Source: Deltaproteobacteria bacterium (lineage in GTDB: Bacteria; Myxococcota_A; UBA9160; SMWR01). From it: DNA of 64,000 nucleotides. The notes under the pieces were generated by a model that was not told the origin of the DNA, did no database searches, and saw only the letters and a list, made by a program, of their open reading frames with translations. The position numbers were made by a program, and so were the translations under genes. Of the stretch, positions 2-18,211 are shown piece by piece (the first letter of the stretch is position 1; each line of letters opens with the position of its first letter). The DNA lies in NCBI GenBank assembly GCA_032128375.1, contig JAQBGU010000063.1, forward strand, positions 1-64,000. Reading direction: 5' to 3'.

Positions 2-2245
2 AAGAGCGCGCGTGAAAAGATCGCCGGGCGCATGATGGTGCTCGACCGGCGCTTCGCCGATGCGCTGCCGCTGGTCTTCGACTTCCTCGGCGTCGGCGAC
101 CCGCAGCGCCCGGCCCCGAGACTCGAACCCGAGGCGCGCCAGCGTCAACTGATGGCTCTGATGCGCGAGGTGACGCAGAGCGCGAGTGCGACGCAGCCGA
201 TGGTGATGATGATCGAGGACCTGCACTGGCTCGACGACGCGAGCGCCGAGTTCCTCGAGCAGATGGTGGATGCGAGCGCCGGCACCCGCAGCCTGCTGCT
301 GCTCAACTTCCGGCCCGAGTACCACGCGGATTGGATGCAGAAGTCGTGGTATCGGCAGATCCCGTTGACGCCGCTCGGACGCGATGCGATCGCCGAGCTG
401 CTGGCAGATCTGCTCGGCAATGACCCGAGTCTCGCCGCGCTGGCGGACCCGATTCACACGCGCACCAGCGGCAACCCATTTTTCACCGAGGAAGTGGCGC
501 AAACGCTGATCGAGTCCGGGCACCTCGAAGGAACGCGCGGCGCCTATCGGCTGGTGACGCCGATCGATCGGCTCGAGGTTCCAGCCACCGTCCAGGCGGT
601 GTTGGCAGCGCGCATCGACCGGTTGCCCGAGCGCGACAAGCGCCTCTTGCAAGTCGCATCCGTCATCGGCAAGGACTTCCCCGAGCCGCTGCTCGCGCAA
701 GTCGCCGATCTGGCTGCCGAGGATCTGAAAGACGCGCTGTCCGCGCTGAACCGCGCCGAGTTCATTCACGAGCAGGCGATCTACCCGGTCATCGAGTACG
801 CGTTCAAGCATCCGCTGACCCAGGAGGTCGCGCTGGGCAGCCAACTGCGCGAGCGCCGCCGCTCGGTACATGCCGCCGTGGCGCGAGCGATCGAGCAGCA
901 GGACGCCGCGCATCTCGACGAGCGCGCCCCGCTGCTGGCGCACCACTTCGAAGAGGCTGGTGAAGCCCTCACTGCCGCGCACTGGCATCGGCGCGCCGCG
1001 GAGTGGGTTGGCAGCACCGACCTCGCCGCCGCGACTCGCCACTGGGGTCGCTTGCGCGCGCTGTTGCGCGCGCTTCCAGACGATCGCGAAGCCGCCGCGC
1101 TCGGCATCGCGGCCTGTCAGCACTTGCTGAACATGGGTTGGCGGTTCGGGATCGAATCGGGCGAGGCGCACTCGTTGCTCGAGGATGGGCAGGCCCTCGC
1201 GAGCGCGACAGGTGATCGAATCGGCAACCTGAACGTATTGCAGGCCTATGCGCGCACGCGCAGCGCCGCGGGCGACGTGGCGGCGTACCTCGAGTCGGCG
1301 ATGCTGAACCAACGCGCGGCACTCGAGTTCGATGATGTTGCAGTACAAGCCAACGCATGCGGGTACCTGATGGACGCACTGGGCTTTGCCGGGCGACTTC
1401 CCGAGTCGCTTGCGCTGGCAGAGGATGGGCTCGCGCGCTTCCCTCGCGATATCCCGGCAGACCAGTGGATCATCGGCGCCAGTCCGCACAGCTGGTACTC
1501 CATCTGGCGTGGCTATTGCCTCAGCTGGATGGGGCAGCTGCCGGAGGGAATCGAAACGTTCGACCGCTGCCGTCGTCTTGCAGAGGAAGACGGCACGCCG
1601 GAGATCACAGGCTATGTGCTGTCTTTTGCCTGCGAGACGCACTATCTGGCCCACGACGCGGATCGGGCACTCGCGAGCGCTCGTCAGCTCGAGGAGCTCA
1701 GCCGAGACCTGGGCGAAATTCCGGCGATTGTCGGCCACACGCAACGCGCGCTTGCGTATGCACAGCTGGCAGCCGGGCGGCCTTCCGACGCCATCGAGCC
1801 GGCGCGGAACGCACTCGACATCTTCCGACGCATCGAGAGAAACCACGAAGGGATGGCAGCCACGCTGCTCGCCGAAGCGCTGCTCGCGACGGGCGATCTG
1901 CCGGCCGCACTGACTGCGGCGGACGAAGCGATCGCCGTCTGCCGCCGTTCGCTGCGCGGCAATTTCGAAGCCATCGCACACGGTGCCCGGGCGCGCGCAC
2001 TGCTGCGCGGCGAGGGCGAGGCCGCTCGGGTGGCCGTGAAAGCCGCTCTTGACGCCGCGGCTTTGTTGATCGAGAGCACGGGAGCGAGCACGCTCGCCCC
2101 CGCGCACTGCGAGTGGCGCGCCGAGCTGGCCGCAGTGCTCGGCGACGACGTCGCGCGCGAGCGTCTTCTGCGCGAAGCGCAGCGGGGCTACACTGAGTCC
2201 GGCGCCATCGGCCACGCCGAACGTCTGACCCGGGAACTCCCATGA
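2..2245 (+). CDS. Cyclase-STAND family protein, copy A (5'-truncated by window edge; NTPase C-terminal part plus TPR-like region)
   Basis: Frame is open from the window edge. Walker B-like MMIEDLHWLD, SGNPFF, ARIDRL and YAFKHPLTQEVALGSQL motifs are shared with the downstream paralogs; Ala/Leu-rich helical C-terminus. Confidence 0.9.
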   Translation, partial: KSAREKIAGRMMVLDRRFADALPLVFDFLGVGDPQRPAPRLEPEARQRQLMALMREVTQSASATQPMVMMIEDLHWLDDASAEFLEQMVDASAGTRSLLLLNFRPEYHADWMQKSWYRQIPLTPLGRDAIAELLADLLGNDPSLAALADPIHTRTSGNPFFTEEVAQTLIESGHLEGTRGAYRLVTPIDRLEVPATVQAVLAARIDRLPERDKRLLQVASVIGKDFPEPLLAQVADLAAEDLKDALSALNRAEFIHEQAIYPVIEYAFKHPLTQEVALGSQLRERRRSVHAAVARAIEQQDAAHLDERAPLLAHHFEEAGEALTAAHWHRRAAEWVGSTDLAAATRHWGRLRALLRALPDDREAAALGIAACQHLLNMGWRFGIESGEAHSLLEDGQALASATGDRIGNLNVLQAYARTRSAAGDVAAYLESAMLNQRAALEFDDVAVQANACGYLMDALGFAGRLPESLALAEDGLARFPRDIPADQWIIGASPHSWYSIWRGYCLSWMGQLPEGIETFDRCRRLAEEDGTPEITGYVLSFACETHYLAHDADRALASARQLEELSRDLGEIPAIVGHTQRALAYAQLAAGRPSDAIEPARNALDIFRRIERNHEGMAATLLAEALLATGDLPAALTAADEAIAVCRRSLRGNFEAIAHGARARALLRGEGEAARVAVKAALDAAALLIESTGASTLAPAHCEWRAELAAVLGDDVARERLLREAQRGYTESGAIGHAERLTRELP

Positions 2246-2697
2246 CGTGTCCGTCCTGCGCACACCCAAACAACCCCGGCGCCAAATTCTGCGAAGAATG
2301 CGGGACGCCGCAGAAGCAGACCTGCGCGAGTCATTCGCACGGTCAACCGGTGCGCATCGACCTCTACGACCCGCACCACCTCGCGGGCTGGACCCAATCC
2401 CGGGTCTCGTGCGGGCGCGCGTGCTCCGCATGATCGGGGGACCGGAGCTCTGGGAACAGCTCGATGACCAGATCAGTGAGACCCTCGAGGTCATCGAGCG
2501 CCGAGAACGGTCGGGATTCCTGCCACGGATCGGGCTCGAGAGAGCGGGACTCGCTCGCATGCGCGACGATGCGGACGGCATGGCGCGCGACCTGGCTGAA
2601 GCGCGCCGTCTGCTCGCGCAGATGGGCGTGATCGGCTGGGACACCTATGCGAGCTCGATCGAGACAAGCTCGATCGAGAAGAAAGGTCGACAAAGAC
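2242..2697 (+). pseudogene. Internally deleted cyclase-STAND paralog (zinc-ribbon start joined to C-terminal helix remnant)
   Basis: ATG overlaps the copy A stop (ATGA) and reads MTCPSCAHPNNPGAKFCEECG. Another frame reads ERAGLARMRDDADGMARDLAEARRLLAQMGVIGW, matching the C-termini of intact copies (ERAHLARGLGDEAGWERELREALRIYTEMDATGW). Confidence 0.7.
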
Positions 2698-5600
2698 ATG
2701 AGCTGCTCCGCCTGCGGCCACGACAACCCGACCGGCAACCGCTTCTGCGGGGGCTGCGGCGCCGCGCTCGAGCGCCTCTGTCGGGCGTGCCAGCACAGCA
2801 ACCCGCCAGACCATCGCTTCTGCGGCGGCTGCGGTGCCGCGCTCGAAGTCGCCTCGTCGCCGGCCGGCCCGGCTCTGGTCGCACGCGACTCGCTGCGCGC
2901 GCCGCGCGACTACACGCCGAAGCACCTCGCGGACAAGATCCTGCAATCGAAGTCCGCGCTCGAAGGCGAGCGCAAGCAGGTCACGGTGCTATTCGCCGAC
3001 GTGAAGGGCTCGATGGAGCTGGCCGAGCAGATCGGGGCCGAGCCAATTCACGCGGTCCTCGATCGCTTCTTCTCGATCCTTGCCGAGGGTGTGCACCGCT
3101 TCGAGGGTACGATCAATCAATACACCGGCGACGGCATCATGGCGCTTTTTGGCGCGCCCATCACGCACGAGGACCACGCGCAGCGCGCTTGTTATGCCGC
3201 GCTCGCGTTGCGCGATGCACTGCGCGAGTTTTCGCGGGAACTGAAGCGCCAGCACGGCCTCGAGTTCGCGACGCGCATCGGCATCCACTCGGGAGAGGTG
3301 GTGGTCGGTCGGATCGGCGACGACCTGCGCATGGACTACACCGCGCAAGGGCACACCGTGGGCCTCGCGCAGCGGATGGAATCGCTCGCGTCGGGCGGCA
3401 GCATCTACGTTTCGGATCGCACGGCGGCGATCGTCGGCGGCTACTTCGCGCTCGACGATCTCGGCGAGTTCCAGATAAAGGGCGCAAGCGCGCCGCTGCA
3501 TGTGTTCGAGCTCTGCGGCATCGGCGCGCTGCGCACGCGCTTCGACCGCTCGCGTGCGCGCGGCCTCTCGAAGTTCGTTGGGCGCGCGCAGGAGATGGGC
3601 GCGCTCGATGCCGCGCTCGACCAGGCGCTCGCCGGCCGTGGCCAGGTCTTCGGCGTGGTGGCAAACGCCGGCACCGGCAAGAGCCGGCTGTGTTTCGAGT
3701 TCGTCGAGTCGTGTCGAGCCAGGGGAATCATGGTCCGTGCCACGACCGGCGTGGCGCACGGTAAGGCGGTGCCGCTCTTGCCGGTGCTCGAATTCTACCG
3801 CGAGGTGTTCGGCATCACCGAGCGCGACGACGCACGCGCGGCGCGCCAGAAGATCGCTGGTGGCGTCGTCCAGAACGACGAGACACTCGTCACCTCGCTA
3901 CCGCTGATCTTTGATTTTCTCGGCGTGCCCGACCCCGAGAGGCCCGTGATGCTCGAACCCGGGCCCGAACGGCGCCACGCACTGCTCTCGGTGCTGAAGC
4001 GACTCGCGCTCGCGCGTAGCCGCCGCGAGCCGGCGGTAATCCTGTTCGAGGACCTGCACTGGATCGACGACGCGACGGAGTTGTTCCTCGAGAATCTCGT
4101 CGACGCGGCGGACGCGAGCCGCACGCTGATCGTGGTGAACTTCCGCCCGGAGTACCGAGCCGACTGGATGCGGCGTTCCTATTATCAACAGCTCGCACTC
4201 GCGCCGCTCGACGCGCGGGCATTCGCGGAGATGCTCGGCGACACACTCGGCCATGACCCGTCGCTGCGCGATGTGTCCAGCGCGATCCACGCCCGCAGCG
4301 GCGGCAACCCGTTCTTCGCGGAGGAAATCGCGCTTTCCCTGATCGAGTCCGGAGCGCTCGTCGGCACTCCCGGCGCATACCGACTGGCGCACGATGCGGC
4401 GTCGTTCGAGATCCCTGCGTCCGTGCAGCTCGTGCTCGCGGCGCGCATCGACCGGCTCGAGGAACGGGAGAAGAACGTCTTGCAGACCGCGTCGGTTATC
4501 GGGCGCGAGTTCTCGCTGGTGCTCCTGCGGCGCGTCGCGCACGTCGAGGCCGATGCACTCGATGACGCGCTCCGCGCGCTCGTCCAAGCCGAGTTTCTAC
4601 ACGAGACCGCGCTCTACCCCGAGGCGGAGTACGCGTTCAAGCACCCGCTCACACAAGAGGTCGCACTCGGCTCGCAGCTGGGTGAGCGGCGCGCGTTCGT
4701 GCACGAAGGCGTCGCGAAGGCACTGGTCGAGATCCACGCGTGCAGGCTCGACGAGCACGCGGCGCTGATCGCACATCACTTCGAGGCGGCCGGCAACCCG
4801 GCCGAGGCCGTGCGCTGGCACGAGCGTGCCGCCGCCTGGCTCGAGGGCCGCGACCTCCACGCCGAGCGTCACCACTGGATGCAGCTGCTCGAGCTGCTGG
4901 GAAATGAGCCGGCAACGACCGAACTCGCGCGCGCCGGACTGCGCGCATGCAATCGGCTGATGTATCTGGCCACATTCCTCGGGCTCGACCTCGCCCGCGC
5001 CGAGGCGCTCTTTCATCGGGGCCGTGCGCTGGCGTTGCGCCTCGACGAGCCCGCTCTCGAAGCCGGGCTGATCGCCTTCTTTGCCAGGCTTGCGATGTTC
5101 GCCGGGCAGTCGGAACTCGCGCGCGGGGGGGTCGAAGAGGCGCTCGCATTGGCGCCGCGCGTCGCTGACCCGGACCGCTACGCCGAGCTGATCCAAGCCG
5201 CCGCGGTCACGGTGACCTTTGTGGGCCGCTATTCGGATGCACTCGAGGTCGTCGAAACCGCGCTGGCCAGCGGCAAGGTCACATCGACTACGCCCGTCGC
5301 GCTGGCGCGCTTGACGGCGATGCACGCGAGCACCCTCACGCGCCTGGGTCGTCTCGCCGCCGCGCGATCCCAGCTCGATCGCGCGGCGGAACTCGTCTCG
5401 TACAATCCTGCGCAAGAGCTCGTCCTTCTCATTGAGCTGTTCTCGACACTCGAACTCGCCGAACGCGGGTATCCGGAGGGCTCGCTCGAGCGCATCGCAG
5501 TCCTCGTCGCGCGCGCGGATGAAACCGAGACGCACAATATCCGGAGCCACGCCCGCATCGGCTTGGCGCAGGCCCATCTCTTCGCCGGCCGGCCGGATGC

Positions 5601-6072
5601 GGCGCTCGAGGCGGTCGAGGCTGGCCTCGGGATCTCGAGCGAGACCGGCGTGAACCTCGGCCTGAATGCGACATTCACGGTTGTGCGCGCACGAGTTCTG
5701 TTGGCACAAGGCGAGGTTGTAGCTGCCCGAGAGCTGATCGAACGGATCGCCGCGACCTCTCTTCCGACTGCAGCGAGCAAGCACGACTGCCTGGTTGCGC
5801 TGGCGCAAGTGCTCGTCGCCTCGGACTTGCGCGGCGAGCGCGAGCGAATCGAGTCGAGCCTGACGCAGGCGGCCACCCTCTCTGAGAAGGTCGGCAGCCC
5901 CGGGCTGCAGGCGGTCGTGTGTACCGAGCGCGCCCATCTTGCCCGCGGGCTCGGCGACGAAGCCGGCTGGGAGCGCGAGCTGCGCGAGGCACTGCGCATC
6001 TACACCGAAATGGACGCGACCGGCTGGATGGAGCGGATCAGCGAGAAGCTCGCGTCGTTGATCGAAGCGTGA
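2698..6072 (+). CDS. Double zinc ribbon - class III nucleotide cyclase - STAND/AAA ATPase - TPR-like protein, copy B
   Basis: Four CxxC pairs (CSAC, CGGC, CRAC, CGGC); VTVLFADVKGS, NQYTGDG, GHTVGLAQRME; Walker A ANAGTGKS; Walker B ILFEDLHWID. Confidence 0.92.
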   Translation: MSCSACGHDNPTGNRFCGGCGAALERLCRACQHSNPPDHRFCGGCGAALEVASSPAGPALVARDSLRAPRDYTPKHLADKILQSKSALEGERKQVTVLFADVKGSMELAEQIGAEPIHAVLDRFFSILAEGVHRFEGTINQYTGDGIMALFGAPITHEDHAQRACYAALALRDALREFSRELKRQHGLEFATRIGIHSGEVVVGRIGDDLRMDYTAQGHTVGLAQRMESLASGGSIYVSDRTAAIVGGYFALDDLGEFQIKGASAPLHVFELCGIGALRTRFDRSRARGLSKFVGRAQEMGALDAALDQALAGRGQVFGVVANAGTGKSRLCFEFVESCRARGIMVRATTGVAHGKAVPLLPVLEFYREVFGITERDDARAARQKIAGGVVQNDETLVTSLPLIFDFLGVPDPERPVMLEPGPERRHALLSVLKRLALARSRREPAVILFEDLHWIDDATELFLENLVDAADASRTLIVVNFRPEYRADWMRRSYYQQLALAPLDARAFAEMLGDTLGHDPSLRDVSSAIHARSGGNPFFAEEIALSLIESGALVGTPGAYRLAHDAASFEIPASVQLVLAARIDRLEEREKNVLQTASVIGREFSLVLLRRVAHVEADALDDALRALVQAEFLHETALYPEAEYAFKHPLTQEVALGSQLGERRAFVHEGVAKALVEIHACRLDEHAALIAHHFEAAGNPAEAVRWHERAAAWLEGRDLHAERHHWMQLLELLGNEPATTELARAGLRACNRLMYLATFLGLDLARAEALFHRGRALALRLDEPALEAGLIAFFARLAMFAGQSELARGGVEEALALAPRVADPDRYAELIQAAAVTVTFVGRYSDALEVVETALASGKVTSTTPVALARLTAMHASTLTRLGRLAAARSQLDRAAELVSYNPAQELVLLIELFSTLELAERGYPEGSLERIAVLVARADETETHNIRSHARIGLAQAHLFAGRPDAALEAVEAGLGISSETGVNLGLNATFTVVRARVLLAQGEVVAARELIERIAATSLPTAASKHDCLVALAQVLVASDLRGERERIESSLTQAATLSEKVGSPGLQAVVCTERAHLARGLGDEAGWERELREALRIYTEMDATGWMERISEKLASLIEA

Positions 6073-9000
6073 ACTGCGCCGGCTGCCAGCGCGAGAACCC
6101 GGCGGACGCGGCCTTCTGCGCCGGATGCGGTCGCAAGCTCGGTCGCGTCTGCTCCAGCTGTCAGCGCGAAAACGACACCGATGCCAGCTTCTGCAACGGC
6201 TGCGGCGCGCCTGTTGCCGTGGAGACGTCGCGCCCGACGCCCACAGAGCGCTCACCGGCTGACTACACACCAAAACACCTCGCGGACAAGATCCTGCAAT
6301 CCAAGTCTGCACTCGAAGGCGAGCGCAAGCAGGTCACGGTGCTGTTCGCCGACGTGAAGGGCTCGATGGAGATTTCCGAGCAGCTCGACGCCGAGGAATG
6401 GCACCGCATCCTCGAACGATTCTTCCAGATCTTGACCGAAGGTGTTCATCGCTTCGAAGGAACCGTCAATCAATACACCGGTGACGGAGTCATGGCTTTG
6501 TTCGGCGCGCCGATCGCGCACGAAGACCATGCCCAGCGCGCGTGTTATGCGGCGCTGCACTTGCGCGAAGCACTCGCGGGTTACGCCACCGAAGTGAAAC
6601 GCGAACACGGTATCGGATTTCAAGCGCGCGTTGGCCTCCACTCGGGCGATGTCGTGGTCGGCAAGATCGGCGACGATTTGCGCATGGACTACACCGCTCA
6701 GGGTCACACGGTGGGGCTGGCTCAGCGCATGGAAAGCCTCGCTGAGCCGAACACCTGCTATCTCAGCGATGCGACGGCCCAGCTCGCGTCTGGCTATTTT
6801 GCGCTCGACGACCTGGGCGACTTCCGCATCAAAGGCGCGGTGGAACCCGTTCACGTCCACCGACTCGTTGGCGTCGGCACTTCGCGGACCCGATTCGATG
6901 TTTCCCGCATGCGCGGACTGTCGCGCTTCGTCGGCCGCGCGGCTGATGTTCGCACGCTCGAAGATGCGCTCGTTCAAACCGCAGCGGGGAACGGGCAGGT
7001 GGTCGGCGTGGTCGCCGAAGCGGGTACCGGCAAGAGCCGGCTCTGCTTCGAGTTCCTGGAAAGCTGCCGCGCACGCGGGATGCGCGTGTTCGAAGGTCAC
7101 GCGGTCGCCCACGGGCGCAACATCCCGTTTCTTCCGGTGCTGGAAATCTTTCGCGCCTACTTCAGCATTACGCCGCAGGACGACGACCGGGCTGCGCGGG
7201 AAAAAATTGCCGGCCGCATGGTCGTTCTCGACCAGAGCCTTGCCGATGCATTGCCATCCGTATTCGACTTTCTCAGCGTACCCGATCCGCAACGCCCAGC
7301 GCCTCAAATCAGCGCGGAGGCACGCCAGCGCCAGCTGGTCGGGTTGATGCGCCAAGTGGTGCAAAGCGAAAGCACCGCGACGCAGCCGACCGTGACGCTG
7401 ATCGAGGATCTGCACTGGCTCGATGCCGCGAGCGCCGAGTTTCTCGAGCACCTGGTCGACGCACGCGCGGGCAGTCGCAGTCTGCTGCTCCTCAACTTTC
7501 GGCCCGAGTACCACGCCGATTGGATGCAGAAGTCCTGGTATCGGCAGATCCCGCTGACGCCGCTCGGCGTCGACGACATCGCCGAATTGCTAGGCGACTT
7601 ATTGGGAGCGGACGCCAGTCTCGCGCATCTCGCCGCGCCGCTGCATGCCCGCACCGCCGGCAACCCCTTCTTCACCGAAGAGGTGGTGCAATCGCTGATC
7701 GAATCCGGCCATCTCGAAGGCGCGCGCGGCGCCTACCGTCTCACCACGGCGGTCGACCGACTGGAAGTGCCGGCGACCGTGCAGGCGGTGCTGGCGGCGC
7801 GCATCGATCGGCTCGCTGAGCGCGAGAAGCGTTTGCTGCAAGTTGCGTCGGTGATCGGCAAGGAGTTTCCGGAACCTCTGCTGGCCGCGGTTGCCGAATT
7901 GACGACCGACGATCTCAAGGAAAGTCTTGCCGCGTTGCGTCGGGGCGAGTTCGTTCATGAGCGGGCCATCTACCCGCTGGTCGAGTACGCGTTCAAGCAC
8001 CCACTGACGCAGGAGGTCGCGCTCGGCAGTCTGCTGCGCGAGCGTCGGCGGCCGCTCCACGCCGCCGTGGCGGGTGCCATCGAAGCGGGCGGCGGCAATC
8101 TCGAGGAGCGCGCAGCACTCCTGGCGCACCACTGGGACGAAGCCGGTCAGACCTTGCCTGCGGCGTTGTGGCACAGGCGCGCGGCAGAGTGGATTGGCGG
8201 CAGCAACTCCGCAGAAGCGACGCGTCACTGGCAACGCGTACGCGTACTCGCCGATCACATCAGCGAGCCGGAACTCGCGATCGAATTGGGGAATCGTTCG
8301 TGCCAGATGCTCGTCGAACTGGGGTGGCGACTCGGCGTGACCGAGCCAGAGGCCGAGGACCTGCTCAGCGACGGGGAGACGTGGGCACGCAAGCGGAACG
8401 ATCCGAGCGCACTCGCGAAGCTGTACAGCGGGGCTTCGATGCTCGTCGCGATCCCACTCGGTCAGATGAAGCGCGCCCAAAAGTTCGCACGGGAAGCACT
8501 GCAACTGGCCCAGGTGGCTGGCGATGAGCCGCTCATCTTCATGAACGAGCTTCGGGTCTGCCTGGCGAATCTGTGGGCGGGTGATCTGCGCACAGCGCGC
8601 ACGGCCATCGAGGCGGCGACCGCGCGCGAGCCCGCTGTGATGGACGCCGCATCGCCGATGCTCGCTTACGACGCCTTCGCGTACGCTCCCGGCCTTCGCG
8701 GACTGATCGCGCACGAGGAGGGGCGGCTCGAGGAGTCGATTCGCTGGCTCGAACAGGGCATCGCCCGCGCGCGCGCACGTGATGCGACCGAGGTGCTCGA
8801 CTGGCTGCTCGGCAACGGGAGCGAAAGCTGGCTCGACCTCGGCGATTTCGCGCGCGCGACCAGCATGGCTCGCGAGGCCATGGAAATCGCAGAGGGCATC
8901 GGGGATGTCACGACCCGCTGCCTGGCAGAGTGCGCGCTGTGTCGCGTGAGCGTGTGCGAAGGCAACCTCGAGACTGCGATCCCCCTGGCTGAGCGCTGGA

Positions 9001-9437
9001 TCGAGACGGCCAGCATCGGCGCCAAATTCCAGCTGCCCTGGGCCCTGAGCACGCTCGCGGTGCTCCGCTCCGGGTGCGGAGAGCCCGACGAGGCGCGCCG
9101 ACTCGCGCACGAGGCGCTCGCACTCGCGGAGTCGGGGGACTTGGGGACCGGGAAACTTTGGTCAGAGCTCGCTCTGGCGCGCATCTGCCTCGACGCGGAA
9201 GATGCCGCGGCGCGCGACGAAGCCGCCGGCTGGCTCACGAGCGCGGAACAGTCCTTGAACACCACCGGCGCCTTCTCGCGTTTGCCCGATCTGCTCGAGC
9301 TGCGCGCCGAGCTGGCTCAGCAACGCGCCGACGCACCCGGCCGCGAGGCCGCGCTCAGCGAGGCGCTGCGCATCCACAGACAAAACGGCGCCGTGGCTCA
9401 CGCCGAACGCATCGCGCGCGAGCTCGCATCTCGATGA
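6069..9437 (+). CDS. Double zinc ribbon - class III cyclase - STAND/AAA ATPase - TPR-like protein, copy C
   Basis: GTG start overlaps the copy B stop (GTGA). CAGC/CAGC/CSSC/CNGC; same cyclase motifs; AEAGTGKS; LIEDLHWLD. Confidence 0.92.
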   Translation: MNCAGCQRENPADAAFCAGCGRKLGRVCSSCQRENDTDASFCNGCGAPVAVETSRPTPTERSPADYTPKHLADKILQSKSALEGERKQVTVLFADVKGSMEISEQLDAEEWHRILERFFQILTEGVHRFEGTVNQYTGDGVMALFGAPIAHEDHAQRACYAALHLREALAGYATEVKREHGIGFQARVGLHSGDVVVGKIGDDLRMDYTAQGHTVGLAQRMESLAEPNTCYLSDATAQLASGYFALDDLGDFRIKGAVEPVHVHRLVGVGTSRTRFDVSRMRGLSRFVGRAADVRTLEDALVQTAAGNGQVVGVVAEAGTGKSRLCFEFLESCRARGMRVFEGHAVAHGRNIPFLPVLEIFRAYFSITPQDDDRAAREKIAGRMVVLDQSLADALPSVFDFLSVPDPQRPAPQISAEARQRQLVGLMRQVVQSESTATQPTVTLIEDLHWLDAASAEFLEHLVDARAGSRSLLLLNFRPEYHADWMQKSWYRQIPLTPLGVDDIAELLGDLLGADASLAHLAAPLHARTAGNPFFTEEVVQSLIESGHLEGARGAYRLTTAVDRLEVPATVQAVLAARIDRLAEREKRLLQVASVIGKEFPEPLLAAVAELTTDDLKESLAALRRGEFVHERAIYPLVEYAFKHPLTQEVALGSLLRERRRPLHAAVAGAIEAGGGNLEERAALLAHHWDEAGQTLPAALWHRRAAEWIGGSNSAEATRHWQRVRVLADHISEPELAIELGNRSCQMLVELGWRLGVTEPEAEDLLSDGETWARKRNDPSALAKLYSGASMLVAIPLGQMKRAQKFAREALQLAQVAGDEPLIFMNELRVCLANLWAGDLRTARTAIEAATAREPAVMDAASPMLAYDAFAYAPGLRGLIAHEEGRLEESIRWLEQGIARARARDATEVLDWLLGNGSESWLDLGDFARATSMAREAMEIAEGIGDVTTRCLAECALCRVSVCEGNLETAIPLAERWIETASIGAKFQLPWALSTLAVLRSGCGEPDEARRLAHEALALAESGDLGTGKLWSELALARICLDAEDAAARDEAAGWLTSAEQSLNTTGAFSRLPDLLELRAELAQQRADAPGREAALSEALRIHRQNGAVAHAERIARELASR

Positions 9438-10137
9438 CGTGCACGAGCTGCGGACACAAGAATGCTGCGAACATCCGCTTCGACGGACGCTGCGGCACCC
9501 CCAACCGCGCAGGTCGCTGGTTATTGCGCCCGCTGTTGCGGCCGCCCTGCGCTGGGTTTTGTGTCCGGTCGAACCCCCAACGAATTCGGCGAAGCCTGCT
9601 GCGGCGTGTGCGGCGCGGCACTCGAAGCTACTCCCGCGCAGCATCCGGCTCCAAGGCGGTGTTTGGCATTCCGCGCGTCGCGGAACGACGCGATCCGCGC
9701 GGTACGCGCCGGTGTGTCGATGCGGGAAATATGGGCCCGCTCCCAGCAGGTGCTCGTCGAATTGGCACCGGACACGCGGGGCCGGCAGGAGCACATGCGC
9801 ATCTCGCACCGCGGGACCCTGCGGCAACTCACGCAGTACGCGACCCGCGACGGGGCGCGCGTTCGAGACGACGTTTCTCTCGGTCGTTGCTGTGGACGAG
9901 CGGTGAAGGACCGGCGGGATGGACCTCTACGACGTCGATCGGTTCGACGAAGCGCGCGCTCGAGCTCTCGGACGACACGATCGGACCGATGAACCACGGG
10001 ACGTGATAGGATCGACCGCCGTGACTGACGGCCGCCCCTCCCCCCGCTGCAGTGCTTCCAACCGACCGGAGCAACCAATGGGCAAGACTGGCCACGCAGA
10101 ACCAACGGCAACGCTGCTCGCCGAGGCCTCCCGATGA
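9434..10137 (+). pseudogene. Decayed cyclase-STAND paralog
   Basis: ATGA overlap with copy C. Reads MTCTSCGHKNAANIRFDGRCG, then frameshifted CCGVCGAALE and cyclase-like NDAIRAVRAGVSM. Ends MGKTGHAE..LLAEASR* with an ATGA overlap into copy D. Confidence 0.65.
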
Positions 10138-13100
10138 ATCTCCTCGAACTCGTGCGCGACGTGCGGCGCCATCTCGAAGAAAATGGCCGTCTGTCGCTGC
10201 GCATGCTGCAGCGACAGTTCGAGCTCGACGACGAAACACTCGACGAGGTGATCGAGGAACTGGTCGACGTGCAGCGTATCGCCGTGCGCGAGGAGCGCGT
10301 GCTGGTCTGGTCAGGAGCGCCTGCGGGCCCGATGGCCCCTGCACTCACGACGCCAACCGCAACAACGGAACGCGACCCTCGCGCGTACACCCCGAAGCAC
10401 CTCGCCGACAAGATCCTGCAATCGAAGTCTGCGATCGAAGGCGAGCGCAAGCAGGTGACGGTGCTGTTCGCCGACGTGAAGGGCTCGATGGACCTGGCCG
10501 AGCAGATCGACGCGGAGCGCTGGCACCGGATCCTGGAACGATTCTTCCAGATCTTGACCGAGGGTGTGCACCGCTTCGAGGGCTCGGTCAACCAGTACAC
10601 CGGTGACGGCATCATGGCGCTGTTCGGTGCGCCGATCGCACACGAAGACCACGCTCAGCGCGCTTGTTATGCGGCGCTGCGGCTGCGCGAGGAGTTGCGA
10701 CGCTACTCCGACCAGCTGCGGCTCGAGCAAGGCCTCGACTTCGCGTTCCGCATGGGGATCAACTCCGGCGACGTCGTCGTGGGCAAGATCGGCGACGACC
10801 TGCGTATGGACTACACCGCACAGGGACACACTGTCGGGCTCGCTGCGCGCATGGAAGGCGTGGCGCCGCCGAACGGTGTCTGCATCAGCGAGGCGACCGC
10901 CAAGCTGGTGACCGGCTACGTGTCACTGCGCGATCTGGGCGCCTCGAATATCAAGGGCGCGAGCGAACCGGTGAACGTCTTCGAACTCGAAGGCATGGGC
11001 GAGATCCAGACGCGCTTCGACCTGTCGCGCTCGCGCGGCCTTACGCGCTTCGTCGGCCGCGACGACGACATGGCGGTCCTCCAGCAGGCGCTCGAGCAGG
11101 CGCGGCACGGAAACGGTCAGGTGGTCGGTGTCGTCGCGCAGGCGGGCACCGGCAAGAGCCGACTCTGCTTCGAGTTCGCCGAGCGCTGCCGTGCGAACGG
11201 ATTGACGCTGCTTGCCGGCTCCGGCGTTGCCCACGGCAAGAACATCCCGTTGCTCCCGATCTTGCAGATCTTCCGACAGTACTTCGGCATCGGAGAGCGA
11301 GACGGCGATCGGTTGGCGCGCGAGAAGATTGCGGGCCGCTTGCTGCTGATCGACGAGAGCTTCCGCGAGTTCCTGCCGGTGGTGTTCGACTTTCTGGCGG
11401 TTCCCGATCCGGAACGGCCGGCGCCGGCGATGGACCCCGAAGCGCGCCAGCGTCAGCTCTTCGGCGTGATGCGTAAAGTGTTCGCACAGGGCGAGAACGT
11501 CGCCGTCAACCTGGTCGAGGATCTGCACTGGATCGACGCGGGCAGCGAAGCCTGGGTCGAGCAGATGGTCGACGCGGCCTTGGGGTCGAAGACGCTGCTC
11601 GTCGTGAACTTCCGGCCCGAGTATCACGCTGCATGGATGCAGAAGTCGTGGTACCGGCAGCTCCCACTGCTGCCGCTCGGGCCCGAGGCGATTCGCGAGC
11701 TGCTCGGGGATCTGCTCGGCAGCGACCCGAGTACAAGCGGACTCGCGGACATGGTGCACGAACGCACGGCCGGCAATCCCTTCTTCGCAGAAGAGATCAT
11801 CCAGACACTGATCGAGTCTGGCAGTCTCGAGGGAAGGCGGGGTGCGTATCGACTCATCACCCCGATCGACCACCTGAAAGTTCCGGGTACCGTGCAGTCC
11901 GTGCTCGCCACGCGCATCGATCGGCTCGGCGAATCGGAGAAGCAGGCGCTGCAGGCGGCTTCGGTGATCGGCAAGGAGTTCGCCGAGCCGATTCTCGCGG
12001 CGGTGCTCGATTGGCCGGAGCGCGAACTCGCAGACGCGCTCCTCTCGCTCAAGAACGCTGAGTTCATCTACGAGCAGTCGCTGTACCCGGTGACCGAGTA
12101 CGCGTTCAAGCATCCGCTTACGCAGGAAGTGGCGCTCGGCTCCCAGCTCCGGGAGCGACGCGCCCGAACCCACGCCGCGGTCGCGCGCGCGCTCGAAGCG
12201 GACGCTCCGGACAAGCTCGACGAGAATGCGGCGCTGCTCGCGCACCACTGCGAGGAGGCCGGCGAGGGCGTGGCGGCTGCCCGCTGGCATCAGCGCGCAG
12301 CGGAGTGGCTGGCCGGGAGCAATGCCGTGGATGCGTACGCGCATTGGCGCCGTGTCTACGAGCTGGCCGGTGCTGCGCCCGAGGATCGCATGGCAGTGGC
12401 GCTGTCGGCGCTCGCAATCCCCACGCTGCTCAGCTCCGCCTGGCGTGTCGGCCTGACCGAGCAAGAGTGGGAGCGACTCGCGGACGAGGGGCGCGAGCTG
12501 GCCGGGCGCGTCGGTGATCGGCGCCTGCTGTTCAACATCGAGAACGGTCTTACGTCGGTGCGCACTCTGTGCGGCGACGTGTGCGACGCCGTCGAACCAT
12601 CGCGGCGCAGTGTCGAGCTCGCCGAGGAGCTGGGAGATCTGGAGTCCCGTGTGCTGGCTGCCGGCTCGGCCTGCGAAATCCTGTGGTTCAGGGGCGAGTA
12701 CCCCGAGGCGCTGCGCGCCTCGGTGGTGGTGGAGGAGATGGCTCGCGCCGATCTCAGCATCGGCGTCGCGCTGTCGGGGTTATCGCTCGGGAACTGGTCG
12801 ATCGCACGCCAGGGCTACATCCTTGCGTCGATGGGACGCCCCCAAGAGGCGAGCGCCCGGTTCGAGCGCGCCGAGCCGTACATGCGAGAGCACGGCGAGT
12901 TCGATTCGCTGAGCCTGCTCAGCGGCTTTCGGGCGGAGGTGGCCTGGTTTTGCGGGGTGACCGACACCGCATTCCACCAGGCGCGACAGGCGATCGAGTT
13001 CGCGGAGAGAACGGGCAGTCCCTTCTCCAGGGTGTATGCGCTCTCGGGCCTCGGCCTCGCCCATCTCGCGGCGGGCCATCCGAACGAAGCGCGAGAAGTG

Positions 13101-13541
13101 CTGGACGAGGCCGTCGCGTTGTGCCGCGGGCGACAAGTCATGCGTATGTACCTCGCCTCTCTGCTCGGCTCGCTCGCGGAATCGCACTTACGCACAGGCG
13201 ACCTCGAGTGTGCCCTCGCGCTCAGCGAAGAGGGAACCGCCTACGCGCTGCGGGCGGGCACAGCCGTCAACGGGCTGCACGCGGAACGGGTCGTGGCAGC
13301 GACGCGAATCGCACGCGGCGAGTCCCGCGAAGCCGCCGGAAGTCTCGACCGCTGCGACGCGCTCGTACAGTCGACCCACGCCGCGGCCTATGCTCCCTTC
13401 GTCGCCGAGCTGCGCGCCCGCCTCGCAGCAGCGCAGGGGGAGGACGCGACCGAACGGTTGCAAGAGGCACAGCGGCAATTCGCGTCCGTCGGCGCCAACG
13501 GTCACGCGGACCGCCTTGCGCGGGAGCTTGGCGCCCGATGA
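10134..13541 (+). CDS. HTH-like N-terminal domain - class III cyclase - STAND/AAA ATPase - TPR-like protein, copy D
   Basis: About 60-aa Cys-free N-terminal domain (GRLSLRMLQRQFELDDETLDEVIEEL); FADVKGS, NQYTGDG, GHTVGLAARME; AQAGTGKS; LVEDLHWID. Confidence 0.92.
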   Translation: MNLLELVRDVRRHLEENGRLSLRMLQRQFELDDETLDEVIEELVDVQRIAVREERVLVWSGAPAGPMAPALTTPTATTERDPRAYTPKHLADKILQSKSAIEGERKQVTVLFADVKGSMDLAEQIDAERWHRILERFFQILTEGVHRFEGSVNQYTGDGIMALFGAPIAHEDHAQRACYAALRLREELRRYSDQLRLEQGLDFAFRMGINSGDVVVGKIGDDLRMDYTAQGHTVGLAARMEGVAPPNGVCISEATAKLVTGYVSLRDLGASNIKGASEPVNVFELEGMGEIQTRFDLSRSRGLTRFVGRDDDMAVLQQALEQARHGNGQVVGVVAQAGTGKSRLCFEFAERCRANGLTLLAGSGVAHGKNIPLLPILQIFRQYFGIGERDGDRLAREKIAGRLLLIDESFREFLPVVFDFLAVPDPERPAPAMDPEARQRQLFGVMRKVFAQGENVAVNLVEDLHWIDAGSEAWVEQMVDAALGSKTLLVVNFRPEYHAAWMQKSWYRQLPLLPLGPEAIRELLGDLLGSDPSTSGLADMVHERTAGNPFFAEEIIQTLIESGSLEGRRGAYRLITPIDHLKVPGTVQSVLATRIDRLGESEKQALQAASVIGKEFAEPILAAVLDWPERELADALLSLKNAEFIYEQSLYPVTEYAFKHPLTQEVALGSQLRERRARTHAAVARALEADAPDKLDENAALLAHHCEEAGEGVAAARWHQRAAEWLAGSNAVDAYAHWRRVYELAGAAPEDRMAVALSALAIPTLLSSAWRVGLTEQEWERLADEGRELAGRVGDRRLLFNIENGLTSVRTLCGDVCDAVEPSRRSVELAEELGDLESRVLAAGSACEILWFRGEYPEALRASVVVEEMARADLSIGVALSGLSLGNWSIARQGYILASMGRPQEASARFERAEPYMREHGEFDSLSLLSGFRAEVAWFCGVTDTAFHQARQAIEFAERTGSPFSRVYALSGLGLAHLAAGHPNEAREVLDEAVALCRGRQVMRMYLASLLGSLAESHLRTGDLECALALSEEGTAYALRAGTAVNGLHAERVVAATRIARGESREAAGSLDRCDALVQSTHAAAYAPFVAELRARLAAAQGEDATERLQEAQRQFASVGANGHADRLARELGAR

Positions 13542-13838
13542 ACTTCTCCCGGCTGCAGCCACGAAAATCGCGATGGCGCGAGGATCTGCGGGATGAACGT
13601 CTCGTCCTCCAGTGGGGCGCTATCCGAGTCGAATCCAAATCTGCAAATCCTGAACGGCGAGGTCACGCACAGCGCGCCAATCCCGGCCGCATCTGACCAC
13701 TGCGGCGACGTCGTCAGCTGGACCGTACCGAGCGCGACTGCCTCCGCGACGCTGTTCGCGGCGGGCTATGCGAAGCCCGGCGGCACATCGAAGGCGAACA
13801 TCCTGGTCAGCCCAGCGTCTTTCGCTTCAACCCGCTGA
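13538..13838 (+). pseudogene. Zinc-ribbon start remnant fused to a fragment resembling a choice-of-anchor V/reeler-like domain
   Basis: ATGA overlap with copy D. MN, then +1 frame PGCSHENRDGARICG, continuing as MNVSSSSGALSESNPNLQILNGEVTHSAP..SWTVPS..ATLFAAG. Confidence 0.45.
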
Positions 13839-13947
13839 ACATTCCGGAGCCCGGCGCGGGCGTCAGCGCACTGATCGCACTCGCGACCATCAGCGTGCTC
13901 GCTCGGCGAAGTCAGCCGATAGGCCCGAACTGAGTTTTGGTTTGCAC

Positions 13948-14382
13948 TCAAGCGACCTCGTCGCTATCGGGTTCCGGGTGGTCGGCGCGCAGGTGGTCGC
14001 AGAAAGCGCGGCAGGCGTCGGTCGCCGTGAAGATCCCGACGAGTTTCGATTTCCGCACGACCAGGACTGAGCCGATGTGGGAGTTGGCCATCTCGTTCAG
14101 CGCGTTGTCGAGTCGCTCAGAAGTCTCCACCACGTAGGGGTCGTGAACCATCACGTCGCCCACGAACCGTTCGCTGCCAGGCGACACACCGAGCGCCGGA
14201 TCGAGCGACCGCTTCAGGTCGCGATCGCTCAGCACGCCGACGAGCTTGCTTCCCCGTTTCACCGGCAGATGGTGAACCTCGTGTTCGGCCATCATCTGAC
14301 GCGCCACCCGCAACGGCGCATCCACATCGATCGCGTACGGGAAAGGCGTCATCACAGACTGAACGGTCGGAAACTTCTTCAC
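13948..14382 (-). CDS. CBS-pair domain protein
   Basis: VQSVMTPFP, HHLPV..LVGVLSDRD, VGDVM, IGSVLV..LVGIFTATD; GAGGAG RBS before a GTG start. Confidence 0.9.
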   Translation of the reverse strand: MKKFPTVQSVMTPFPYAIDVDAPLRVARQMMAEHEVHHLPVKRGSKLVGVLSDRDLKRSLDPALGVSPGSERFVGDVMVHDPYVVETSERLDNALNEMANSHIGSVLVVRKSKLVGIFTATDACRAFCDHLRADHPEPDSDEVA

Positions 14383-18201: not shown

Positions 18202-18211
18202 GCCTTTCTCC

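What the first reader, a model, noticed from the sequence alone, without database searches (positions are those of the whole stretch)
2..13592. Tandem array of NLR-like cyclase-STAND-TPR proteins with a conserved signalling core and divergent sensor ends
Seen: four long paralogs and three remnants lie head to tail, and most junctions are 4-nt stop/start overlaps (ATGA at 2242, 9434, 10134, 13538; GTGA at 6069). The cyclase and NTPase parts are very similar (for example YTPKHLADKILQSKSA.EGERKQVTVLFADVKGSM and YAFKHPLTQEVALGS). After AxxWHxRAAxW, about 400 aa of TPR-like sequence cannot be aligned by eye, except for a shared terminal helix. Known: STAND NTPases with repeat sensors act as ligand-triggered oligomerising switches (animal/plant NLRs, bacterial Avs antiviral STANDs), and class III cyclases need dimerisation. 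The single-gene architecture is itself known. Inference: this is a co-translated receptor repertoire in which different sensors feed one cyclic-nucleotide output, resembling an NLR gene cluster. The role could be immune (phage or competitor sensing) or environmental.
Basis: partly seen in the sequence, partly recalled or inferred. Interest (0 to 1): 0.78.

Follow-up and report, generated by a model that had tools for sequence, protein, structure and literature searches.

The report
Tandem array of cyclase-STAND-TPR sensor genes
Four neighbouring genes and the wrecks of two or three more each join a cyclic-nucleotide-making enzyme to an ATP-driven switch and a different repeat "sensor"; the protein type is common and annotated but unstudied, and it looks more like ordinary signalling than phage defence.

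Summary
The array is real. Genes A (cut by the contig start), B, C and D are zinc-ribbon (D: other head) – class III cyclase – MalT-type STAND NTPase – TPR proteins. Two internally deleted copies are firm and a third stub is marginal. Per-run contigs of three samples of one study support the junctions.

The paralogs are old: synonymous sites are saturated. Cyclase identity is 72-75% and TPR identity 18-28%.

The sensors are conserved types, not free-running variable ends:
- A's TPR has 60-66% orthologues in 36 other genes.
- B and C have 47-49% orthologues.
- D has none above 37%.
- In orthologue pairs TPR dN/dS is 0.25-0.60, against 0.02-0.22 for the core.

On the core tree the sensor types are polyphyletic, so cores and sensors have been recombined between array members. 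Arrays (33 of 72 related loci) and 4-nt overlaps (18 of 48 junctions) are a family habit. The NTPase-TPR part matches 10,517 cluster representatives at E≤1e-30.

I found no defence neighbours, no linked cNMP effector and no Avs model hit. Best reading: a repertoire of signal-sensing cyclases that evolves by birth and death. An immune role is not excluded.

The catalytic site is conserved but non-canonical (Lys→Gln, Asn→Gly). This scan has already noted similar clusters on other DNA.

The parts
2..2245 (+). Gene A (partial, 747 aa): second half of the STAND NTPase plus TPR sensor of type T1. The 5' end is lost at the contig start.
   Evidence: TPR is 60-66% identical to the 36 other members of cluster T1. 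NTPase is 80-84% identical to them.
2242..2690 (+). Remnant 1: an internally deleted paralogue. Zinc-ribbon head at 2242-2385 (ORF stops at 2433); C-terminal tail at 2454-2678 in another frame.
   Evidence: E 9e-8 and 1.3e-7 to B; DZR above cut-off. Bridged by contigs of runs X1-X3.
2698..6072 (+). Gene B (1124 aa): double zinc ribbon, class III cyclase, AAA_16 STAND NTPase, TPR sensor of type T7.
   Evidence: Guanylate_cyc 86.7 bits, AAA_16 69.7, DZR 42.1. Orthologues L012_782 and L048_3 have TPR 49%.
6069..9437 (+). Gene C (1122 aa, GTG start overlapping B's TGA by 4 nt). Zinc ribbons are residues 1-49, cyclase 82-267, NTPase about 286-715, TPR 716-1075, terminal helices 1076-1122. Sensor type T9 on a T1-like core.
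   Evidence: AF2 model of residues 275-1122 has pLDDT 91.3. Foldseek top hits are PH0952, Avs3, Apaf-1 and MalT.
9434..10137 (+). Remnant 2: a decayed, internally deleted paralogue. Zinc-ribbon pieces at 9434-9496 and 9600-9707. The frame ending at 10137 keeps the C-terminal GHAE motif and the ATGA overlap with D.
   Evidence: Bridged by contigs of X1-X3.
10134..13541 (+). Gene D (1135 aa): a non-zinc-ribbon head of about 60 residues (weak FeoC-like winged-helix hit, E 0.002, below cut-off), cyclase, NTPase, and a TPR sensor without a close relative.
   Evidence: Best TPR match is 37% among the loci and 34% in the 5.8-billion-protein search.
13538..13640 (+). Remnant 3 (marginal): an ATGA start overlapping D's stop, then a frame-shifted zinc-ribbon-like stretch at 13554-13637.
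   Evidence: E 0.04; no Pfam hit. A fourth-sample contig skips 13575-13904.
2910..3019 (+). Stretch of about 110 nt at the start of B's cyclase domain with conserved synonymous sites. The matching stretches are 6263-6372 in C and 10385-10494 in D.
   Evidence: Identical-codon fraction is 0.76-0.83 against 0.46-0.47 expected. Contig depth spikes at these places.

Best explanation
The locus is an operon-like tandem array of paralogous one-protein sensor enzymes.

Proposed mechanism, by analogy with MalT-clade STAND proteins:
1. Each protein rests as an ADP-bound monomer that is closed by its TPR arm.
2. A cue specific for that copy's TPR domain (a metabolite or a protein) opens it.
3. ATP binding then drives oligomerisation.
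4. Oligomerisation brings the N-terminal class III cyclase domains together into active dimers, which make a cyclic nucleotide. cAMP is most likely, but cGMP or another product is possible because the site is non-canonical.
5. The signal is read elsewhere in the genome by cNMP-binding proteins.

The different sensors therefore feed one output.

The array evolves by birth and death. Old duplicates are kept as distinct, conserved sensor types, copies are lost by internal deletion, and the signalling core and the sensor are recombined between neighbours.

Shown here: domain make-up, motifs, fold, age, orthology, recombination, strain-level variation and genomic context. Inferred: ligand-triggered oligomerisation, the product, the cues, and the physiological (non-immune) role.
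For: Domains. Guanylate_cyc, AAA_16, DZR and TPR are found in B, C and D; D lacks DZR.

Motifs in the 93-row family alignment (counts are over the rows with a residue in that column):
- Both metal Asp residues are kept: 90 of 90 and 91 of 91.
- Arg is kept in 92 of 92.
- Walker A Lys is kept in 92 of 92.
- Walker B Asp is kept in 93 of 93.

Fold. The AF2 model has pLDDT 91.3 and pTM 0.76. Foldseek gives PH0952 STAND-TPR (6mfv, E 7e-12), MalT (8bob_C, TM 0.59 over the target), Apaf-1 and Avs3. The TPR profile hits AfsR, MalT domain III and PH0952.

Selection.
- Between the paralogues, cyclase dN/dS is 0.22-0.29.
- In orthologue pairs dN/dS is 0.02-0.22 for the cyclase, 0.08-0.18 for the NTPase and 0.25-0.60 for the TPR.

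Conserved sensor types. T1 has 37 members at 45% TPR identity or more.

Recombination.
- TPR types T1, T2 and T3 are polyphyletic on the NTPase tree.
- The AU test rejects T3 as one clade (delta lnL 231, p 3.6e-57).
- L018_13247 is 81% (NTPase) and 25% (TPR) identical to its T1 neighbour, but 57% and 60% identical to another T3 gene.
- The L015 neighbours have 100% identical cyclase domains and 26% TPR identity.

Family habit. 33 of 72 related loci hold 2-4 copies, and 18 of 48 junctions are 4-nt overlaps.

Context.
- The window neighbours are CBS, MMPL, a KshA-like Rieske protein, patatin, OYE, PqiAB and a P450.
- The ORFs scanned around 28 long loci (148 of the 156 within 3.3 kb) are mostly metabolic.
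- The genome has 10 cNMP-binding matches, 9 of them over the cut-off.
Against: - No activity, ligand or oligomer was tested.
- The substrate Lys is Gln in 79 of 91 rows and the transition-state Asn is Gly in 88 of 92 rows (alignment to CyaB 3r5g). Activity and product are therefore uncertain.
- The distribution is patchy. A T1-type TPR was found at 55% in G018 but at 36% or less in G001, G002, G006 and G009. D's sensor has no orthologue. Copy content differs between related sequences. These are traits also seen in defence genes.
- PIN-domain genes lie within 3.3 kb in 9 of 28 loci.
- A 2026 preprint predicts that one clade of cNMP cyclases fused to STAND NTPases is immune. I could not place this family against its Table S1.
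Confidence: 0.6

Rival explanations
1. Immune repertoire. The copies are NLR/Avs-like receptors whose TPR domains recognise phage or competitor proteins. The cyclic nucleotide they make activates cNMP-binding effectors encoded elsewhere, a Pycsar/Pucsar-like pathway working in trans.
For: - The STAND plus TPR fold is close to Avs3 (8dgc, E 1.5e-9).
- Turnover is NLR-cluster-like: there are wrecks, sample-level deletions and sensor/core recombination.
- The TPR evolves 2-4 times faster than the core.
- D's sensor is unique and the presence of T1 among relatives is patchy.
- PIN toxins lie near arrays in 9 of 28 loci, with AbiEii and PemK in one locus each.
- The preprint predicts an immune clade of cyclase-STAND fusions.
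Against: - PADLOC gives no Avs or other defence model apart from generic PycC cyclase hits.
- There is no killing effector in the proteins and no cNMP-binding gene on the contig. Only 3 of 28 loci have one within 3.3 kb.
- No restriction, CRISPR or phage genes are nearby.
- The cyclase is slow-evolving (72-75% identity between saturated paralogues; dN/dS 0.02-0.29). The preprint's immune cyclases have long branches.
- T1 is conserved in 37 genes.
- TPR dN/dS is below 1.
Confidence: 0.15
2. Helper/sensor network. The copies act together in mixed oligomers or mixed cyclase dimers. The widely conserved T1 copy serves as a common partner and the variable copies serve as specific sensors, so the array computes combinations of cues.
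For: - T1 is present in many arrays beside varied partners, often as the last gene.
- Cyclase domains of neighbours are kept very similar or identical (L015 100%, L018 90%; window 72-75%). That would keep a dimer interface compatible.
- 4-nt overlaps would give coupled synthesis.
Against: - No interaction was tested.
- Many loci hold a single copy (39 of 72), although 16 of those 39 loci are under 10 kb long.
- The cultured-host homologue examined is a single gene.
- In the window T1 (A) is first, not last.
Confidence: 0.12
3. Decaying or non-catalytic paralogues. The Asn-to-Gly and Lys-to-Gln changes have disabled the cyclase, so the domain is only a nucleotide-binding or dimerising module, and the array is on its way to loss.
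For: - The non-canonical site: Gly in 88 of 92 rows and Gln in 79 of 91.
- Two or three wrecks in the array.
- Further broken copies elsewhere in the genome: C26 and C206 have internal stops and C60 is truncated.
Against: - Both metal Asp residues and the Arg are kept in every row that has a residue there.
- The cyclase is the best conserved part, under strong purifying selection.
- The same substitutions are fixed across a family of thousands, which suggests a working variant chemistry.
- From recall, not from a call: Rv0386 is active with Gln in place of Lys.
Confidence: 0.08

Closest known systems
Mycobacterial Rv0386 / Rv1358 / Rv2488c multidomain class III cyclases (cyclase, MalT-type ATPase, TPR, LuxR HTH)
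   Same: The order is the same: N-terminal class III cyclase, AAA_16/MalT-type P-loop NTPase, TPR (passages of bioRxiv 10.1101/2024.03.06.583649). Gln stands in place of the substrate Lys, as reported for Rv0386 (a passage mentions the Gln-Asn pair; Castro et al. 2005 is recalled).
   Different: There is no C-terminal LuxR helix-turn-helix (no such Pfam hit), so the only output is the nucleotide. The N-terminus is a double zinc ribbon. The second substrate residue is Thr, not Asn. The transition-state Asn is Gly. The genes stand in tandem arrays.
MalT-clade STAND NTPases with TPR sensors (E. coli MalT, Pyrococcus PH0952, Streptomyces AfsR)
   Same: The fold of the NTPase-arm-TPR part is shared: 6mfv is the top Foldseek hit, 8bob_C has TM 0.59, and the TPR profile hits 8jke, 1hz4 and 6mfv. 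The Walker A and hhhhDD-type Walker B motifs are present. The working model (inducer on the sensor, ATP-dependent multimerisation) is taken from MalT and is recalled.
   Different: The effector is a cyclase, not a DNA-binding domain. By sequence alone the NTPase domain matched no solved chain at E of 0.01 or better; all best stretches lay in the TPR.
Avs (antiviral STAND) and bacterial NLR-like defence proteins
   Same: They share a tripartite effector-STAND-repeat sensor layout. Avs3 is the second Foldseek hit.
   Different: There is no PADLOC Avs hit, no nuclease, protease or NADase effector, and no defence-island context. Arrays of diversified paralogues are not a described Avs trait (recalled).
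Pycsar / Pucsar cyclase-effector defence systems, and the predicted 'Immune clade 1' of cyclase-STAND fusions
   Same: The cyclase is also class III. PADLOC PycC models hit at E 1.6e-23 to 3.7e-22. The preprint notes cyclases fused to STAND NTPases and loci with several cyclases.
   Different: The PycC hit is no stronger than the generic Pfam hit. There is no adjacent cNMP-binding TIR or membrane effector. The STAND types named in the preprint are NACHT and AP-ATPase, not AAA_16/MalT-type. Its Table S1 could not be read.
Plant and animal NLR gene clusters
   Same: Tandem paralogues with a conserved nucleotide-binding core and divergent repeat sensors, pseudogene wrecks, copy-number differences and sequence exchange between members.
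   Different: This is an analogy only. Here the sensor types are old and conserved across genomes, with net purifying selection. No immune function is shown.

Membership tests
Class III nucleotidyl cyclase (Pfam PF00211) | Profile match above the curated cut-off | tested here: met
   B 86.7, C 83.5 and D 73.7 bits against a cut-off of 21.9. The best solved relative is P. aeruginosa CyaB 3r5g, E 6.6e-25.
Class III nucleotidyl cyclase (Pfam PF00211) | Two metal-binding Asp residues | tested here: met
   C D95 and D139. Asp in 90 of 90 and 91 of 91 rows with a residue.
Class III nucleotidyl cyclase (Pfam PF00211) | Substrate-defining Lys plus Asp/Thr | tested here: not met
   The Lys position is Gln in B, C and D and in 79 of 91 rows (Lys in 12). 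The second position is Thr in 91 of 92 rows.
Class III nucleotidyl cyclase (Pfam PF00211) | Transition-state Asn-Arg pair | tested here: not met
   The Asn position is Gly in 88 of 92 rows (Asn in 2, His in 2). Arg is kept in 92 of 92.
Class III nucleotidyl cyclase (Pfam PF00211) | Dimer-dependent cyclase activity | not testable with these tools
   Needs an enzyme assay.
STAND NTPase, MalT clade | Walker A GxxGxGK[ST] and Walker B hhhhD[DE] | tested here: met
   GTGKS with Lys in 92 of 92 rows. In the [DE]-D-L-H-W stretch the Asp is kept in 93 of 93 rows. AAA_16 scores 63-82 bits against a cut-off of 32.6.
STAND NTPase, MalT clade | NBD, helical and winged-helix module followed by an arm and a repeat sensor | tested here: met
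   AF2 model pLDDT 91.3. Foldseek hits: 6mfv E 7e-12, 8bob_C, 1z6t, 8dgc.
STAND NTPase, MalT clade | Inducer- and ATP-dependent multimerisation | not testable with these tools
   Needs biochemistry.
Rv0386-type cyclase-ATPase-TPR-LuxR proteins | C-terminal LuxR-type helix-turn-helix | tested here: not met
   No HTH family among the Pfam hits of A-D at E of 0.01 or better. The proteins end in TPR helices.
Avs / antiviral STAND | Match to a defence-system model | tested here: not met
   PADLOC gives only PycC models, plus one weak TPR model for D. A has no hit.
Avs / antiviral STAND | Cell-killing N-terminal effector and defence-island context | tested here: not met
   The effector is a cyclase. 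The neighbours are metabolic.
Pycsar / Pucsar | Adjacent cNMP-binding effector (membrane or TIR) | tested here: not met
   None among the 18 neighbour ORFs scanned. There is no PF00027 match on contig C63. 3 of 28 related loci have a cNMP-binding gene within 3.3 kb, none with TIR.
Pucsar preprint 'Immune clade 1' (cyclase fused to STAND) | Cyclase domain falls in that clade; long branches | tested here: inconclusive
   Its Table S1 was not readable. The cyclase here is slow-evolving, unlike the long branches described.
TIGR03903 TOMM kinase/cyclase fusion | Score over the cut-off of 705.75, with an N-terminal kinase | tested here: not met
   172-278 bits. The matches begin at profile position 281 or later (575 for A), so there is no kinase part.

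The most novel reading that the evidence does not exclude
The arrays are a bacterial counterpart of NLR gene clusters in function as well as form. They would be a repertoire of non-self sensors whose signalling core is kept uniform by exchange between neighbours while sensor cassettes are swapped in and out. Their shared cyclic-nucleotide output would fire cNMP-binding effectors encoded in trans. The oddly conserved DNA at the start of the cyclase domain would be the recombination joint.
Probability: 0.1. Interest if true: 0.8.

Novelty: new variant of a known kind. Interest (0 to 1): 0.38.

Why it matters
STAND-switch cyclases are one of the largest unstudied groups of bacterial signalling proteins. 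The NTPase-TPR part alone matches 10,517 cluster representatives at E≤1e-30.

This locus shows how the family diversifies:
- Old sensor types are kept side by side.
- Cores and sensors are exchanged between neighbours.
- Copies are lost by internal deletion.

It also flags a conserved, non-canonical catalytic site (Gln, Thr, Gly) whose product is unknown.

Homologues at 39-44% identity sit in cultured Cupriavidus and Burkholderia, with further matches in Sinorhizobium and Rhizobium. Both open questions can therefore be tested at the bench: what do the proteins make, and is the role signalling or immunity?

Tried and rejected
- dN/dS between the four paralogues: dS is saturated (0.74 to above 2, some undefined), so the TPR values of 0.45-1.05 mean nothing. 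I used orthologue pairs instead.
- Copy number at the same locus in relatives: not possible. The best MMPL neighbour orthologue is only 59% identical, and its contig shares no other gene with the window.
- RNA element in the conserved 110-nt stretch: folds are no better than shuffles (z +0.33 to +0.80). A GCGCTCG/CGAGCGC hairpin is paired in 84% of cells but has no compensatory change and equals the shuffles. Rejected as unsupported.
- Rfam: one sub-threshold RT-3 hit at 2398-2553 (24.3 bits against a gathering score of 40.5). Taken as chance.
- Promoter and terminator scan: no more than in shuffles (1 against 0.6; 9 against 7.7).
- Expression: no RNA holder listed.
- A's missing 5' end: the contig-end fragment C7:3-656 is 67-73% identical to several types and cannot be assigned.
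- Single-linkage TPR clusters at 35% chained 79 genes together. I replaced this with a 45% threshold.
- PADLOC PycC hits are read as generic cyclase homology.
- Submitter labels of the related MAGs span 14 phyla and some are implausible, so I drew no taxonomic conclusion.
- PMC2447327: only its reference list is held. PMC13092281: its passages are irrelevant.
- Phage records hold only a bare cyclase domain.

Full report
WHAT IS THERE

The window is the first 64 kb of contig C63 of a 6.2-Mb metagenome-assembled genome (249 contigs, 91% complete, 2.9% contamination). G+C is 63-69% over the first 14 kb. Four long genes lie head to tail on the + strand:
- A, 2-2245: 747 aa visible, with its 5' end cut by the contig start.
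- B, 2698-6072: 1124 aa. An in-frame ATG at 2647 would add 17 residues.
- C, 6069-9437: 1122 aa, GTG start.
- D, 10134-13541: 1135 aa.

Pfam gives Double zinc ribbon, Guanylate_cyc, AAA_16 and TPR families for B and C. D has the same domains without the zinc ribbon. A shows the rear of AAA_16 plus TPR. D's first 60 residues or so give only a weak FeoC-like winged-helix hit (E 0.002, below cut-off).

JUNCTIONS AND REMNANTS

Only GTGA at 6069 joins two intact genes.
- rem1 is a collapsed copy. A zinc-ribbon head at 2242-2385 (DZR above cut-off; E 9e-8 to B) runs up to the first residues of the cyclase domain. A C-terminal tail at 2454-2678 follows in another frame (E 1.3e-7 to B).
- rem2 (9434-10137) has two decayed zinc-ribbon pieces (each E 1e-5). 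It ends with the family's C-terminal GHAE motif and an ATGA shared with D.
- rem3 is marginal (E 0.04; no Pfam hit).

So at least six, perhaps seven, copies once stood here, and two were lost by internal deletions that kept both gene ends.

INDEPENDENT CHECK OF THE ASSEMBLY

Three runs from three samples of one study hold 95-97% of the sampled words. One of them may be the window's own source. Their per-run contigs cover 754-2961, 4049-6341, 7518-10419 and 13040-14200 with 0-4 differences. They therefore bridge rem1, the B/C overlap, rem2 and rem3.

A fourth sample holds a relative that differs at about 3-7% of letters. One of its contigs joins 6058 to 8763 with 38 other letters between, so most of C is missing there. 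Another contig skips 13575-13904, the rem3 region. These are single contigs at depth 9-13. I read them as copy-content differences between related genomes, not as proof of a particular event.

AGE AND PATTERN OF DIVERGENCE

Amino-acid identity between copies:
- Cyclase: 72-75%.
- NTPase: 41-78% (54-78% in the comparisons of 200 residues or more).
- TPR: 18-28%.
- Last about 45 residues: 34-62%.

Synonymous divergence is saturated in every domain (dS 0.74 to above 2). The duplicates are therefore old, and paralogue dN/dS in the TPR is meaningless.

In orthologue pairs with dS 0.2-1.1, dN/dS is 0.02-0.22 for the cyclase, 0.08-0.18 for the NTPase and 0.25-0.60 for the TPR (seven pairs). The sensor evolves two to four times faster but is under net purifying selection. 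Site-level tests were not run.

ORTHOLOGUES

A scan of one genome per species gave 501 confirmed relatives, of which the best 80 were kept as 72 loci. Of 114 distinct TPR domains, 37 form one cluster (T1) at 45% identity or more.
- A belongs to T1: TPR 60-66% and NTPase 80-84% identical to the others.
- B has two orthologues (TPR 49%, NTPase 77%).
- C has one (L002: TPR 47%, NTPase 83%). A 398-residue fragment in the representative library is 78% identical to its TPR.
- D has none. Its best match is 37% among the loci and 34% in the word-indexed search of 5.8 billion proteins, where 6 hits had E≤1e-10 among the 8000 candidates scored.

The sample of loci was seeded with C, whose core is T1-like, so T1 is over-represented.

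Among five relatives searched with A's TPR, only G018 (same order) has a 55% match. G001 (same genus, 78% complete), G002, G006 and G009 give 36% or less.

RECOMBINATION BETWEEN CORE AND SENSOR

On a tree of the NTPase part (93 rows, 340 columns, quick IQ-TREE):
- A and C both sit in one clade (SH-aLRT 99) that holds T1 (24 rows), T2 (4), T3 (3) and T9 (2).
- Other T2 and T3 genes lie elsewhere on the tree.
- Holding the six T3 genes together costs 231 log-likelihood units (AU p 3.6e-57). The group was named after the tree was seen.

Pairs make the point:
- L018_13247 (T3) is 90% (cyclase), 81% (NTPase) and 25% (TPR) identical to its T1 neighbour. It is 78%, 57% and 60% identical to the T3 gene L023_6585.
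- The L015 neighbours are 100%, 76% and 26% identical.
- In the window, A and C are 76% identical in the NTPase and 24% in the TPR. Identity drops sharply near C residue 710.

So the 'conserved core, divergent sensor' picture is partly made by exchange or conversion between array members. It is not only a matter of different rates.

FAMILY HABIT AND SIZE

- 33 of 72 loci hold 2-4 copies within the stretch fetched (up to 10 kb on each side). 16 of the 39 single-copy loci are under 10 kb long.
- 18 of 48 junctions are ATGA or GTGA overlaps.
- Arrays mix different types.
- All 21 genomes searched (G000 and 20 relatives) have a match at E≤1e-30, though several match only the cyclase domain. Arrays appear in G018, G011 and G009.
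- The own genome has about ten family genes or fragments, several of them broken.
- The NTPase-TPR part matches 10,517 cluster representatives at E≤1e-30 and 54,642 at E≤1e-10.
- One source names the proteins 'class 3 adenylate cyclase/tetratricopeptide (TPR) repeat protein'.
- 294 plasmid or chromid records match. The listed best ones are from Cupriavidus and Burkholderia at 39-44% identity, and most records are from Sinorhizobium and Rhizobium. They are annotated 'adenylate/guanylate cyclase domain-containing protein'. The one region I opened holds a single copy.

CATALYTIC AND SWITCH MOTIFS

These were read from the alignment to P. aeruginosa CyaB and from the 93-row alignment, counting the rows with a residue in each column.
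- Kept: both metal Asp (90 of 90, 91 of 91), Thr at the second substrate position (91 of 92), Arg (92 of 92), Walker A Lys (92 of 92) and Walker B Asp (93 of 93).
- Changed: the substrate Lys is Gln in 79 of 91 rows, and the transition-state Asn is Gly in 88 of 92.

B, C and D all carry Gln, Thr and Gly. A conserved but non-canonical site argues for a working, unusual chemistry. The product is unknown.

FOLD

The AF2 model of C residues 275-1122 (56-row alignment) has pLDDT 91.3 and pTM 0.76. Foldseek ranks the STAND-TPR protein PH0952 first (E 7e-12), then Avs3, Apaf-1, MalT, CED-4 and NLRP7. The sequence profile hits Pins/LGN, AfsR, MalT domain III and PH0952 in the TPR part only.

CONTEXT

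Downstream in the window lie a CBS protein, an MMPL transporter, a KshA-like Rieske oxygenase, patatin, an old-yellow-enzyme fusion, PqiA/MlaD genes and a P450-ferredoxin fusion.

Around 28 long loci I scanned 148 of the 156 ORFs that lay within 3.3 kb. They are mostly metabolic. Recurring items:
- PIN-domain genes: 11 ORFs in 9 loci.
- Other cyclase genes: 5 loci.
- cNMP-binding genes: 3 loci. Two of these are small proteins beside a metallophosphatase and one is a P450 fusion.
- AbiEii and PemK: once each.
- No restriction, CRISPR or phage genes.

PADLOC gives only PycC models (E 1.6e-23 to 3.7e-22 at best), which is no better than the generic Pfam cyclase hit, and no Avs model. The genome has 10 cNMP-binding matches (9 over the cut-off), none of them on C63.

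LITERATURE

- Passages of bioRxiv 10.1101/2024.03.06.583649 describe Rv0386 as cyclase plus MalT-type ATPase plus TPR plus LuxR HTH, and mention a Gln-Asn pair.
- The Pucsar preprint 10.64898/2026.08.12.744502 (passages and section 5) predicts an 'Immune clade 1' of cNMP cyclases fused to NACHT or AP-ATPase STAND modules, with long branches. Its Table S1 could not be read, so I cannot say whether this family is in that clade.
- Passages of PMC7159879 list cNMP cyclases as effector domains of other conflict systems.
- Four searches listed no paper on tandem arrays of zinc-ribbon-cyclase-STAND-TPR genes. That holds for the library searched only.
- The MalT activation model, the Avs and Pycsar papers, and Castro et al. 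2005 on Rv0386 are recalled, not read here.

EARLIER NOTES OF THIS SCAN

Similar clusters were already noted on other DNA. The closest is e1-2170476: an old cyclase-STAND-TPR cluster with swapped N-terminal heads and a P450-cNMP-binding neighbour. Here I saw alternative heads and one P450-cNMP fusion in L066.

VERDICT

The locus is an array of MalT-clade STAND-switch cyclases with distinct, mostly conserved TPR sensor types. It evolves by birth and death and by exchange between neighbours. Ordinary signal sensing is the best-supported role (0.6). An immune role (0.15) is not excluded, but no test run here favours it.

Noticed in passing
window 2910-3019, 6263-6372, 10385-10494: The first 40-80 codons of the cyclase domain keep their synonymous sites. 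The identical-codon fraction is 0.76-0.83 (next 40 codons: 0.63-0.72) against 0.46-0.52 expected. The DNA is visibly near-identical between B, C and D over about 110 nt. The same two windows are raised between unrelated loci (0.60-0.64 against 0.48-0.57 in the other windows), with odd codon choices such as GAA at E83 in 62 of 85 rows. Contig depth spikes to 130-310 against about 20 at these places. rem1's deletion starts at the start of this stretch. A hairpin explanation failed. The cause is unknown.
   Followed up: partly
L005:15045-22838, L009:15520-24726, L032:18615-23372: Giant ORFs of 1,586-3,069 aa lie downstream of T1-type copies. Their first 700 residues or so match the zinc-ribbon-cyclase-NTPase core at about 200 bits. 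Earlier notes of this scan describe such giants with NTF2/SnoaL arrays.
   Followed up: no
L018:3671-4875 and L034:13386-14677: A small cNMP-binding protein (157-169 aa) sits beside a calcineurin-like metallophosphatase next to cyclase arrays in two loci. This could be a receptor plus phosphodiesterase pair.
   Followed up: no
9 of 28 related loci (for example L011:9447-9872, L012:4603-4998, L032:9575-9991): PIN-domain (VapC-like) genes lie within 3.3 kb of arrays: 11 ORFs in 9 loci. I did not test whether this exceeds their genome-wide density.
   Followed up: no
L015:9902-13354 and L015:13296-16715: Two neighbouring copies with different sensors (TPR 26% identical) have 100% identical cyclase domains. 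This looks like a recent conversion tract.
   Followed up: partly
window 6058-8763 and 13574-13905: In a fourth sample, contigs of a relative that differs at about 3-7% of letters join these points. They lack most of gene C (38 other letters lie between the joined ends) and the rem3 region.
   Followed up: partly
G000 contigs C26:5912-9095, C60:5206-7302, C206:9341-10234, C7:3-656: There are further family copies elsewhere in the genome. One is split by a TGA, one is truncated at about 700 aa without a TPR, one is a 300-aa fragment with a stop, and one is a contig-end fragment.
   Followed up: partly
window 2398-2553: A sub-threshold Rfam hit to RT-3 RNA (24.3 bits against a gathering score of 40.5, E 0.025) lies inside remnant 1. 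Probably chance.
   Followed up: no
window 14446-31380: The neighbours suggest lipid or steroid-like metabolism: an MMPL transporter, a KshA-like Rieske oxygenase, patatin, PqiA/MlaD/ABC-auxiliary genes and a P450-ferredoxin fusion.
   Followed up: no
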